Shown: one piece after another, positions 33,273 to 34,153 of the stretch | Numbering within the stretch: the stretch's first letter is position 1 | How the letters are laid out: the number at the start of each line of letters is the position of its first letter | Virus record (IMG/VR): IMGVR_UViG_3300042475_005534 | Span: 24,124 to 88,123 of that record | From: a virus | Length of the DNA stretch: 64,000 nucleotides | Strand: one strand, 5' to 3' | The notes under the pieces: model-generated | Seen by the model: only the letters and a program-made list of their open reading frames with translations | What the model was told of the DNA's origin: nothing | Databases searched by the model: none | Made by a program: the position numbers and the translations under genes

Positions 33273-33704
33273 TCAGGAGGGCGGAAGACAGATCACACGA
33301 AAGCCGATGTAGTCGTCGGTATAGCCGGGCAGGTCAATGCCGCGGTGAGCCAAGCGGCGGTCTGAGGGGAGACTGTCCCAGCCGCCGCCGCGCAATACCG
33401 CCCGGCATGGTGCTTCTTCCTGGGGGAGGCACACCACGCGAAACCCGATGACGTCGTTGGCATAGCCGGGCTGGTCGCGGTAGCGGTAGACCGAGCGGCA
33501 GTTCCTGGGGAAGTTGAACCAGGAGCCACCGCGCATTGACAAGTCGCAGCGTGCGGTGGAGGCCCCTGGAGGGACGCACACCACGCGGAAACCGATGTTG
33601 TCGATTGGCTCGCCGGGTTCTCCGGGAAAGCGATGGGCAGAGCGGCAATGCCTAAGGAAGAAGTCCCAGGGACCGCCGCGTAACGCCCGATTGGGGATCG
33701 TCAT
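33273..33704 (-). CDS. protein made of 3 tandem DGR-VR-like units (RGG.W...CRS..R...GFRV)
   Basis: Starts [8 protein letters not shown], ATGA-coupled; three units of the FGE/CLec C-terminal motif. Confidence 0.7.
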   Translation of the reverse strand: [143 protein letters not shown]

Positions 33705-34153
33705 GGTGTCATCCCCCGCGGAAGACAGATCACACGAAAGCCGAGGTCGTAGTCGGCATAGTCGGGCGAATGGGAAATGCCGCGACAGGTCGAGCGGCAC
33801 CAGGGGTAGCTGAGCTGGGCGTGGGAGCCGCCGCGCATGGTTACCTGCGTGGGCTTGACCCCCAGAGGGAGGCACACCACGCGGAAGCCCAAGCCGCTGC
33901 TGGCATAGCCGGGCTGGAAGCGTCCGAAGCCGCGGCAGGCCGAGCGGCAGAACCCGGGGTTGTTGCCCCAGGAGCCACCGCGCAGTGGCGGTAGCATCCG
34001 AGGTGGTGCCACCTCCCGAGGGAGGCACACCACGCGGAAACCGACGAGATCGTCTTGGTAGTGCGGAGCGGCGCGTCGGTAGGACAAGCGTAAATACGCC
34101 TGTTGTTCCGTCCTGAAAAACCAAGTACCGCCGCGTTGCACTTGATACGTCAT
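33701..34153 (-). CDS. protein made of 3 tandem DGR-VR-like units
   Basis: RGGTW/RGGSW/RGGSH ... GFRVVC x3; ATGA-coupled at both ends. Confidence 0.7.
   Translation of the reverse strand: [150 protein letters not shown]

What the first reader, a model, noticed from the sequence alone, without database searches (positions are those of the whole stretch)
33422..33986. Adenine-mutagenesis (NNC) footprint between VR-like units
Seen: units at 33422-33536 and 33867-33985 share the backbone CGCGGTGGCTCCTGG..CCC..TGCCGCTCGG..CGC..CAGCCCGGCTATGCC..CGCGTGGTGTGCCTCCC. Most differences fall at codon positions 1-2 with the third C fixed: TTC/GGC, TTC/AAC, AAC/TTC, TAC/TGC, GAC/TTC, AAC/AGC, GAC/AGC, GTC/GGC, plus AGG/GGG. 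This is the opposite of neutral drift, and established DGR mechanics predict it from a template with AAC codons. A few differences (GTC/GCC, a 6-nt indel, synonymous changes) do not fit. Inference: both units descend from the same or a closely related template repeat.
Basis: partly seen in the sequence, partly recalled or inferred. Interest (0 to 1): 0.8.

Follow-up and report, generated by a model that had tools for sequence, protein, structure and literature searches.

The report
Phage repeats written from host retroelement
Two short repeats in a lake virus differ from each other almost only at the letters that a bacterial mutator (a diversity-generating retroelement) scrambles; the matching template sits next to a reverse transcriptase in the genomes of the likely host, Cyanobium, not in the virus.

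Summary
The two units (U8, 33422-33536; U5, 33867-33985, minus strand) are two of exactly nine FGE-sulfatase C-terminal modules. These flank a C-terminally truncated FGE/C-type-lectin gene in a complete 88-kb phage that has no reverse transcriptase and no tenth, template-like copy.

Taken alone, the NNC pattern is only suggestive (P=0.17 for codon position; P=0.001 to 0.025 for third-base C). It becomes decisive once the predicted template is found.

- U8 differs from that TR at 12 of 26 adenines and 3 of 85 other bases.
- U5 differs at 18 of 26 adenines and 6 of 85 other bases, plus a 6-nt insertion.
- U5 and U8 differ from each other at 17 of 26 TR-adenine positions and 7 of 85 others.

Five of the nine units pass a within-codon test; four have decayed. 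Contigs from 2020 and 2024 carry the same downstream array, so no ongoing rewriting of these units was seen. In contrast, the in-frame N-terminal unit varies at template-adenine codons between phages whose gene bodies are 97-100% identical.

It remains open whether the host DGR wrote on phage DNA or the phage imported finished repeats. This scan has noted similar cases in other phages.

The parts
33422..33536 (-). U8, a TR1-type variable-repeat unit (RGG..GFR at 33438-33533), the second unit of ORF 33273-33704
   Evidence: Against the L113 TR: 12/26 adenines and 3/85 other bases differ, with no gap. Within-codon test 12/26 against 0/22, P=1.4e-4.
33867..33985 (-). U5, a TR1-type variable-repeat unit (RGG..GFR at 33881-33982), the second unit of ORF 33701-34153
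   Evidence: Against the L113 TR: 18/26 adenines and 6/85 other bases differ, plus a 6-nt insertion. Within-codon test 18/26 against 3/22, P=1.1e-4. This is the stretch the complex model places against the gene body.
33273..33704 (-). ORF with units U7 (33585-33680), U8 and U9 (33297-33392); its ATG overlaps the upstream stop (ATGA)
   Evidence: Pfam FGE-sulfatase profile 217-254, three stretches. Within-codon test: U9 P=0.01, U7 P=0.14.
33701..34153 (-). ORF with units U4 (34034-34135), U5 and U6 (33734-33835)
   Evidence: U4 and U6 are not significant in the within-codon test (P=0.29 and 0.14).
34150..34560 (-). 136-codon open frame from the first ATG (34538) to the stop at 34150, inserted between the gene body and U4. 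It begins MHSDL like the first downstream unit of relative L002, and is absent from L002.
   Evidence: No Pfam or PHROG match. 96-100 identical bases per 100-column block against L001.
34565..35284 (-). FGE/C-type-lectin gene: N-terminal in-frame unit U3 (35156-35254), linker, then the body (34568-35113), which ends EWCRNEYRPY* without the usual RGGSW..GFRVV end
   Evidence: Pfam PF03781, 142.5 bits, profile positions 5-194 of 255. dN/dS of the body against L002 is 0.08. All 7 aligned variants end NEYxPY. U3 against the second host template TR2: 14/24 adenines, 13/85 other bases, 5 gaps.
35281..35643 (-). Upstream ORF with units U1 (35461-35577) and U2 (35314-35415); its stop overlaps the ATG of the FGE gene
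   Evidence: Within-codon test: U2 P=0.004, U1 P=0.30. Only 40-56 identical bases per 100-column block against L001, while the flanks reach 92-100.

Best explanation
U5 and U8 are genuine variable repeats of a diversity-generating retroelement (DGR). Their differences were made by adenine-specific mutagenesis during reverse transcription of a template repeat, of the type that lies directly after an RT gene in freshwater Cyanobium genomes (RT, then TR, then an FGE target gene ending in a VR).

The phage has neither RT nor TR. The variation therefore comes from a host-type DGR. I think the more likely route (about 0.45) is that host cDNA is written into phage DNA in trans during infection. The other route is that finished host repeats are imported by short-patch recombination (about 0.35).

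Within the phage the template-length modules sit with phage-specific linkers in tandem arrays around a truncated lectin-fold gene. Some of them have since drifted.

Shown: the template exists, mismatches fall at adenines, the phage lacks RT and TR, and the unit scaffold is far younger than the gene body. Inferred: the route of transfer and the function of the array. My reading of function is that the units supply the missing variable end of the lectin fold, in cis at the N-terminus or in trans from the small ORFs.
For: 1. The template is found.
- A pattern made from the U5/U8 backbone, with N at the variable codon positions, hit 80 stretches in genome contigs (the listing cap). 74 of these are labelled as cyanobacteria, mostly Cyanobium.
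- 16 of the 108 matches have A at all nine N positions.
- 18 template-like copies, 13 of them distinct, were collected.

2. RT is adjacent to the TR.
- 4 of 5 handles searched have PF00078. The RT loci L095, L096 and L097 contain the TR.
- In L113 the RT ORF is at 618-1487 (64.8 bits), the TR at 1511-1625, and the FGE target at 1647-2714 (186 bits) with its VR at 2579-2692.

3. Positive control. 60 of 94 cyanobacterial VR-like units have at most 2 non-A mismatches plus gaps against the best TR. Pooled within-codon counts are 1363/2186 A positions against 79/1738 non-A positions.

4. The phage units.
- U8: 12/26 adenines against 3/85 other bases.
- U5: 18/26 against 6/85.
- U5 against U8: 17/26 against 7/85, P=1.2e-8.
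- All nine units pooled, within-codon: 136/218 against 52/181, P=1.2e-11.

5. The unit scaffold is young and the gene body is old. U8's A-free codons differ from the L113 TR at 3 of 63 bases. The body is only 54-61% identical in protein to the best Cyanobium homologues, with synonymous sites saturated (pS 0.70-0.75).

6. There is recent turnover in the phage lineage. Among 26 full-length natural variants, bodies are 97-100% identical while the N-terminal unit is 29-82% identical.
- These units fit a second Cyanobium template, TR2, found in 7 of 401 genomes.
- P0134 and P0140 differ from TR2 at 11/14 A-containing codons and 0/23 other codons.
- P0135 and P0141 differ at 11/14 and 2/23.

7. In print, a plasmid-borne avd-TR-brt rewrites a BPP-1 prophage that lacks them (PMC3240598, passages read).
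Against: - No RT and no template copy were found in the complete phage genome, nor any RT in the 10 other viral records with such units. 3 of those 10 are at least 90% complete. The machinery was never seen together with these units.
- The host VRs carry a conserved 3' flank (CAGGRCCCTTCC...) opposite the TR's CAGCACCCTTCG. The window's units share it only as far as ..CCTCCC(C)AGG and then continue with their own linker. A BPP-1-type IMH is therefore not evident. No significant hairpin follows either the phage units or the host VRs.
- Contigs of two 2020 runs cover 32500-35160 with 26-27 differences and no gap. 20-21 of those differences lie at 34297-35118, so at most 6 fall in the stretch holding U4-U9. 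No rewriting of U5 or U8 was seen between 2020 and 2024. Contigs do hide rare variants.
- U5 has a 6-nt insertion. U5 and U8 share non-template states (GGT, GGC TAT), which points to an unsampled template or to shared descent after mutagenesis.
- U1, U4, U6 and U7 fail the within-codon test (P=0.14-0.30).
- The window and L001 arrays differ by indels and whole-unit replacement, which retrohoming alone cannot produce.
- The best TR was chosen to minimise non-A mismatches, which flatters the counts somewhat.
- The N-terminal-unit evidence is at protein level only.
Confidence: 0.85

Rival explanations
1. Recombinational capture. The mutagenesis happened only in host genes. The phage repeatedly imports finished host VRs, or whole gene ends, by short-homology recombination at the conserved unit ends, and then duplicates them in tandem. 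No cDNA is ever written into phage DNA.
For: - The unit ends are conserved for 15-25 nt between phage and host, enough for patch exchange.
- One viral unit (L091:9805) carries a host-like 3' flank beyond the repeat, as expected for imported DNA.
- The window's units lack the host-type IMH flank.
- U4-U9 are unchanged between the 2020 and 2024 contigs.
- The window and L001 arrays differ by whole-unit replacement and indels.
- A Gam-like/Gp157 recombination-associated gene lies nearby at 30581-31423.
Against: - Phage-specific linkers and scaffold markers (GGT; GTG GTG) are kept around variable positions that differ.
- The N-terminal unit differs between phages with 100% identical bodies (182/182) at 38-40% of its aligned positions, with 0-2 changes in 23 non-A codons. 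This would need very frequent double crossovers within about 20-nt arms.
Confidence: 0.35
2. Relic of a phage-borne DGR. An ancestor of this phage carried its own RT and TR, and the units are fossils left after the cassette was lost.
For: - Phage DGRs of the BPP-1 type exist (PMC3240598, PMC5758913, passages read).
- Four of nine units look decayed.
- One incomplete viral record (G009, 31% complete) carries an unmutated, template-identical unit.
Against: - There is no RT in any of the 11 viral records searched, including 4 that are at least 90% complete.
- The best templates lie in GC-rich host-like contigs next to RT.
- U8's scaffold is 60/63 identical to a host TR although the gene body is saturated against host homologues.
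- N-terminal units turn over between near-identical phages.
Confidence: 0.08
3. No retroelement is involved. The NNC pattern comes from C-ending codon preference plus diversifying selection on surface positions of a duplicated lectin-fold segment.
For: - Using the phage alone, the codon-position bias is not significant (P=0.17).
- Third-base C is also in excess in neighbouring genes.
- Pairwise dN/dS among units scatters around 1.
Against: - An all-adenine copy of the same backbone exists next to RT genes.
- Within template codons that contain A, U8 changes 12/26 A positions and 0/22 other positions. Selection on amino acids does not spare third positions in this way.
- Synonymous sites of the scaffold match the host TR.
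Confidence: 0.03

Closest known systems
Cyanobacterial DGRs with remote FGE-type C-type-lectin targets (Vallota-Eastman et al. 2020, PMC7517822; passages read)
   Same: - The fold is the same (FGE-sulfatase/CLec), and the variable repeat occupies the same position in it (RGGSW..GFRVV).
- The template has AAC codons, and mismatches fall at template adenines.
- One RT-TR can serve several targets elsewhere in the genome.
   Different: - Here the repeats lie in a phage genome that has no RT and no TR.
- They are split off from the gene body and stand in tandem arrays of 2-6 per ORF cluster (nine in all).
- The donors are unicellular picocyanobacteria. In the passages read, that paper says DGRs were absent from the Synechococcus and Prochlorococcus genomes it examined.
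Bordetella phage BPP-1 DGR and its trans-complementation (Guo et al. 2011, PMC3240598; abstract and passages read)
   Same: A phage variable repeat can be rewritten at adenines from avd-TR-brt supplied from another replicon in the same cell. Homing needs only short 5' homology.
   Different: - In BPP-1 that arrangement is a laboratory construct; here it would be the natural state.
- The BPP-1 requirements (a (GC)14 plus 21-bp IMH and a following hairpin) are not evident after the phage units.
- The target is not a tail-fibre gene. It lies among early-region-type genes (DUF932, Gam-like).
DGR cassettes with several tandem targets (Wu et al. 2018, PMC5758913; passages read): eight tandem target genes in a Stenotrophomonas DGR, and one target with three tandem FGE domains
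   Same: Several variable repeats stand in a row and are served by one template.
   Different: In those cases each repeat ends a complete domain and lies beside its RT and TR. Here the repeats are bare template-length modules without the domain body and without the retroelement.
TvpA of Treponema denticola, the FGE-type DGR variable protein (named in PMC5758913; its structure is recalled, not checked here)
   Same: An FGE-type lectin fold whose C-terminal segment is the variable repeat.
   Different: TvpA is a single intact chain. Here the body stops 7 residues after the EWC motif and the variable segment is encoded separately, or in-frame at the N-terminus.

Membership tests
DGR variable repeat (target of mutagenic retrohoming) | A near-repeat of a template repeat whose mismatches fall at template adenines | tested here: met
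   - U8: 12/26 A against 3/85 non-A.
- U5: 18/26 against 6/85, plus a 6-nt insertion.
- Within-codon test: U8 12/26 against 0/22; U5 18/26 against 3/22.
- U2, U3 and U9 give P=0.004-0.01. U1, U4, U6 and U7 are not significant.
- The template is heterologous, from Cyanobium-type DNA.
DGR variable repeat (target of mutagenic retrohoming) | Template repeat and DGR reverse transcriptase in the same genome or cassette | tested here: not met
   PF00078 gives 0 matches in the complete 88,123-bp genome. The unit profile finds nine copies and no tenth. There is also no RT in 10 other viral records that carry such units.
DGR variable repeat (target of mutagenic retrohoming) | In the donor, the template lies beside an RT and has its own A-mismatched VR | tested here: met
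   L113 has RT (64.8 bits), then TR, then an FGE target (186 bits). The RT loci L095-L097 hold the TR. 60 of 94 host units have at most 2 non-A mismatches plus gaps.
DGR variable repeat (target of mutagenic retrohoming) | The VR forms the 3' end of a complete target ORF | tested here: not met
   The body ORF stops at EWCRNEYRPY*. The units lie in separate small ORFs or in-frame at the N-terminus. The same split is seen in L001, L002 and L003.
DGR variable repeat (target of mutagenic retrohoming) | IMH at the VR 3' end, paired with IMH* at the TR, and a following hairpin | tested here: not met
   Host VR flank CAGGRCCCTTCC against TR CAGCACCCTTCG. The window's units match only to ..CCTCCC(C)AGG. 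Folding z-scores run from -0.75 to +1.16 for both phage and host flanks, so the hairpin criterion is uninformative here.
DGR variable repeat (target of mutagenic retrohoming) | Hypervariation between otherwise near-identical genomes | tested here: inconclusive
   - Not seen for U4-U9: at most 6 differences between the 2020 contigs and the window.
- Seen at protein level for the N-terminal unit: bodies 97-100% identical, unit 29-82% identical, with changes at TR2 A-codons.
DGR variable repeat (target of mutagenic retrohoming) | Accessory protein Avd in the cassette | not tested
   Neither the host loci nor the phage were searched for Avd.
FGE-sulfatase / C-type-lectin fold (PF03781) | A match to the family profile over the whole domain in one chain | tested here: not met
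   The body matches profile positions 5-194 of 255 (142.5 bits). The units match 214-255 in other ORFs. The complex model joins the body and U5: score 0.85, best of 3 controls 0.02, partner pLDDT 46-48. This pass may only reflect likeness to solved intact domains.
Silent-cassette gene conversion (pilE/pilS, vlsE type), considered for the array | The silent copies are the donors of the variation seen at the expressed site | tested here: not met
   The variable N-terminal site carries the TR2 scaffold (CRAA..GVRPC) in natural variants. The array units carry the TR1 scaffold (CRS..GFRVVC). All units point the same way and none is a close copy of U3.

The most novel reading that the evidence does not exclude
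A cyanophage with no reverse transcriptase of its own has its lectin-fold gene diversified by its host's DGRs. Two different Cyanobium templates (TR1 and TR2) serve two classes of phage repeats. The in-frame N-terminal repeat is rewritten between phages with identical gene bodies. An array of up to nine (ten in a relative) bare repeat modules supplies alternative, separately translated variable ends that complete the truncated fold in trans. This would be a split, combinatorial binding protein whose diversity is generated across genomes.
Probability: 0.3. Interest if true: 0.9.

Novelty: new variant of a known kind. Interest (0 to 1): 0.75.

Why it matters
DGRs are normally described as self-contained cassettes that diversify their owner's genes. 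Here the written product sits in a virus and the writing machine sits in the virus's likely host.

- If host cDNA is written into phage DNA, a host mutator is being used, or exploited, across the virus-host boundary.
- If the phage imports finished repeats, it is harvesting host-made diversity.
- Either way, the match ties this uncultured 88-kb lake phage to Cyanobium.
- It shows DGRs with at least two template families in freshwater picocyanobacteria, a group that a 2020 survey reported as lacking them (PMC7517822, passages read).
- It exposes an unusual split lectin-fold architecture with tandem bare variable modules.
- It gives a directly testable system: infect strains with and without an active RT and sequence the phage units.

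In the held library I found no paper describing this arrangement. Supplementary files were not consulted.

Tried and rejected
- Similar DNA in deposited phages: none found (blastn, INPHARED).
- Rfam over 30000-40000: only a sub-threshold CC2171 match (28.5 bits against a gathering score of 75). No intron or other RNA explains the split.
- Programmed frameshift joining the body to the units: rejected. The frame offset differs between relatives (the body and the next unit ORF start at positions 1 and 2 mod 3 in L002, and 1 and 0 mod 3 in L003). A T-rich run inside the 136-codon ORF is not conserved in L001.
- Circular permutation (U3 acting as the fold's last segment): an AlphaFold2 model of the 239-aa ORF from a 14-sequence alignment gave mean pLDDT 60.5, with residues 1-40 below 50. 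This neither shows nor refutes it. No fold search was run on such a model.
- Hairpin after the repeat: none significant.
- A dedicated template for the N-terminal unit inside relatives' records: blast of L002's unit against G001-G003 found only the array units.
- Silent-cassette donor model: rejected because the scaffolds do not match (see the membership test).
- Depth and gaps in the contig laying: high depth at 33438-33571, 33840-33973 and 34510-34777 comes from other organisms' FGE genes. No use was made of uncovered parts.
- Complex prediction passed: 0.85 against a best control of 0.02; the mark was reached by 51 of 78 solved complexes and 2 of 108 mismatched pairs; runs agree in at least 95% of contacts; partner pLDDT at least 46. 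These are halves of a known domain, so the pass may reflect likeness to solved FGE folds and does not show binding.
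Full report
WHAT IS THERE

The window is bases 24124-88123 of an 88,123-bp virus record with direct terminal repeats, rated 100% complete. On the minus strand between 35643 and 33273 lie nine units of the form RGGxW..[11 protein letters not shown].
- Pfam places the units at positions about 214-255 of the 255-position FGE-sulfatase profile PF03781.
- U1 and U2 form one small ORF (35643-35281).
- U3 is the in-frame N-terminus of the ORF 35284-34565. The rest of that ORF matches profile positions 5-194 and stops at EWCRNEYRPY, without the usual C-terminal segment.
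- A 136-codon ORF with no family match follows.
- Two ORFs of three units each come next: U4-U6 (34153-33701) and U7-U9 (33704-33273).
- A DNA profile of the units finds exactly these nine in the whole genome (E<=6e-13); the next hit has E=2.2.
- The finding's two units are U8 (33422-33536) and U5 (33867-33985).

THE OBSERVATION

U5 and U8 are the most similar of the 36 unit pairs: 79% over 37 aligned codons, plus a 2-codon indel.

Judged from the phage sequence alone, the signal is modest.
- Differences by codon position are 8, 10 and 5, which does not depart from a neutral 2:1 split (P=0.17).
- 20 of 24 codons at amino-acid differences end in C. Genome-wide codon usage predicts 12.5 (P=0.001); the usage of three neighbouring genes predicts 15.2 (P=0.025).
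- Those neighbouring genes themselves have excess third-base C.
- Other units contain E, Q, K and W at variable positions, so the NNC rule does not hold across all nine.

THE TEMPLATE

There is no reverse transcriptase (PF00078) in the phage. I turned the backbone shared by U5 and U8 into a pattern with N at the variable codon positions.
- It matched 80 stretches (the listing cap) in the species-representative genome collection. 74 of these carry cyanobacterial labels, mostly Cyanobium. It also matched 8 viral stretches.
- 16 of the 108 matches have adenine at all nine N positions.
- 18 template-like copies, 13 of them distinct, read [37 protein letters not shown] or close variants.

These copies lie beside RT genes.
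- 4 of 5 handles searched have PF00078. The RT loci L095-L097 contain the template copy.
- In L113, a GC-rich host-like metagenome contig, an RT ORF (64.8 bits) is followed by the template at 1511-1625 and by an FGE gene (186 bits) that ends in its own variable repeat.
- As a positive control, 60 of 94 cyanobacterial variable-repeat-like units differ from the best template at no more than 2 non-adenine positions plus gaps, while 7-21 of about 25 adenines differ.

Against the L113 template:
- U8 differs at 12 of 26 adenines and 3 of 85 other bases, with no gap.
- U5 differs at 18 of 26 adenines and 6 of 85 other bases, plus a 6-nt insertion.
- U5 and U8 differ from each other at 17 of 26 template-adenine positions and 7 of 85 others (P=1.2e-8).

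Template adenines sit in surface codons, which could vary for other reasons. I therefore compared A and non-A positions within the same template codons.
- U8: 12/26 against 0/22 (P=1.4e-4).
- U5: 18/26 against 3/22 (P=1.1e-4).
- U2, U3 and U9: P=0.004-0.01.
- U1, U4, U6 and U7: not significant (P=0.14-0.30).
- Pooled: 136/218 against 52/181 (P=1.2e-11).
- Host control, pooled: 1363/2186 against 79/1738.

Caveats:
- The best template was chosen to minimise non-A mismatches.
- Sites are treated as independent.

AGE

The gene body is only 54-61% identical in protein to the best Cyanobium-family homologues (18 of 401 genomes have a match at E<=1e-40), with synonymous sites saturated (pS 0.70-0.75). 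In contrast, U8's adenine-free codons differ from the L113 template at 3 of 63 bases. The unit was therefore written or converted from a host-type template long after the body diverged. The body itself is under strong purifying selection (dN/dS 0.08 against L002). It ends at NEYxPY in all 7 aligned variants, so the truncation is a conserved design and not decay.

RELATIVES AND DYNAMICS

- L001 is 92-100% identical per block in the flanks, U3, the body and the 136-codon ORF. Its two arrays share only 40-62 identical bases per 100 columns, with indels.
- L002 has 1+4 units and no 136-codon insert. L003 has two units. In both, the body ORF also stops before the units, which lie in another frame. 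One 2,064-nt metagenome contig (L111) has ten tandem units.
- None of the 10 other viral records with such units has an RT; 3 of the 10 are at least 90% complete.
- Contigs from two 2020 lake-water runs cover 32500-35160 with 26-27 differences and no gap. 20-21 of those differences lie at 34297-35118, so at most 6 fall in the stretch holding U4-U9. U5 and U8 were thus stable between 2020 and 2024 at consensus level. Contigs cannot show rare variants.
- Upstream of 35160 those contigs carry different units.

The N-terminal unit behaves differently.
- Among 26 full-length natural variants of the protein, the body is 97-100% identical while the N-terminal unit is 29-82% identical. For example, P0130 against P0141 has a body of 182/182 and a unit of 62%.
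- These N-terminal units carry a different scaffold (CRAA..GVRPC). It matches a second Cyanobium template, RGGSWFNEPHNCRAANRNSNHPANVNTNNGVRPCCLL, found in 7 of 401 genomes together with variable repeats that differ from it at 0-2 non-A bases.
- At protein level, P0134 and P0140 differ from it at 11 of 14 A-containing codons and 0 of 23 others. P0135 and P0141 differ at 11/14 and 2/23. P0126 differs at 12/14 and 2/23.
- The window's own U3 is more decayed: 14/24 adenines, 13/85 other bases, 5 gaps.

MECHANISM

Shown:
- The NNC footprint is a DGR footprint.
- The template and RT are in Cyanobium-type genomes and not in the phage.
- Two template families correspond to two classes of phage units.

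Inferred: how the diversity reached the phage.
- For in-trans writing: phage-specific linkers and markers are kept around positions that vary. The N-terminal unit turns over between phages with identical bodies. It is also established that avd-TR-brt on a plasmid can rewrite a phage that lacks them (PMC3240598, passages; PMC5758913, passages).
- Against in-trans writing: the host-type 3' flank (IMH) is not kept after the phage units, U4-U9 are stable over four years, and the arrays differ by indels.
- Recombinational import of finished host repeats fits these last points and remains a strong rival.

Function.
- The locus lies among small minus-strand genes near a DUF932 gene and a Gam-like/Gp157 gene, not among structural genes.
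- A complex model places U5 against the truncated body as its missing end: score 0.85, best of 3 controls 0.02. That mark is reached by 51 of 78 solved complexes and 2 of 108 mismatches. Runs agree in at least 95% of contacts, and partner pLDDT is 46-48. These are halves of a known domain, so the pass may only reflect likeness to solved folds.
- An AlphaFold2 model of the 239-aa ORF left U3 unplaced (pLDDT below 50).

COMPARISON AND NOVELTY

The closest known systems are:
- cyanobacterial DGRs with remote FGE-type targets (PMC7517822);
- the BPP-1 DGR with laboratory trans-complementation (PMC3240598);
- cassettes with tandem targets (PMC5758913).

This case differs in four ways.
- The repeats lie in an RT-less phage.
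- They stand as bare, template-length modules split from the domain body.
- They come in arrays.
- They match templates in picocyanobacteria, which the 2020 survey reported as lacking DGRs (passages read).

Seven full-text searches found no description of this arrangement. Supplements were not seen.

Earlier notes of this scan describe similar host-templated repeats in Microcystis, picocyanobacterial and planctomycete phages. One later check there left open the same question of written-in against picked-up. My counts are independent of those notes.

VERDICT

I class it as a new variant of a known kind, with interest 0.75.

Noticed in passing
L134-L143 (Cyanobium-family genomes G005, G007, G077, G106, G134, G178, G195): A second DGR template family (RGGSWFNEPHNCRAANRNSNHPANVNTNNGVRPCCLL) with variable repeats that differ at 0-2 non-A bases. 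Together with TR1, this shows DGRs in freshwater picocyanobacteria, a group a 2020 survey reported as lacking them.
   Followed up: partly
window 23285-39097: Nine copies of a ~36-nt element containing GTGTGCACTGCTGA, all in one orientation in intergenic stretches among minus-strand genes (repeat family D9).
   Followed up: no
window 35715-35931, inside ORF 35676-36335 (-): A 9/12-nt periodic GGC-rich repeat that encodes AAWAAWDAARDAA-type repeats in a 219-aa protein with no family match. L001's copy has a different repeat content.
   Followed up: no
window 48736-50015 and 62657-63994: Long tandem repeat arrays: a 66-nt period in 13-18 copies, and a 168-nt period in 6 copies.
   Followed up: no
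window 34150-34560 (-): A 136-codon ORF inserted between the FGE body and the first downstream unit in the window and L001 but not in L002. It starts with the same MHSDL as L002's first unit, as if inserted just inside that unit. Its C-terminal LSxLRALARERG motif recalls HeH/Rho_N-type DNA-binding motifs; this is recalled and was not tested.
   Followed up: partly
L101 (viral record G009) 3835-4114: A small phage ORF whose first unit is template-identical (all adenines unmutated), followed by a mutated unit. No RT was found in this 26.8-kb record, which is 31% complete.
   Followed up: partly
L111 (metagenome contig, 2,064 nt): Ten tandem units in a relative of this locus, the longest array seen.
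   Followed up: no
proteins P0008, P0011, P0012, P0022: Homologues in which the called ORF runs from the body through one or two units in the wrong frame (Ala/Ser/Pro/Thr-rich text) and ends with a unit in the right frame. Out-of-frame units may serve as linkers, or the units may be read by separate initiation.
   Followed up: no
window 28034-29122 (-) and 30581-31423 (-): A DUF932 gene (99.3 bits) and a Gam-like/Sipho_Gp157 gene lie near the locus. This suggests an early, DNA-handling module rather than a virion module.
   Followed up: no
window 36340-36496 (+): A sub-threshold Rfam match to the Caulobacter sRNA CC2171 (28.5 bits, gathering score 75, E=0.006). It is probably chance.
   Followed up: no
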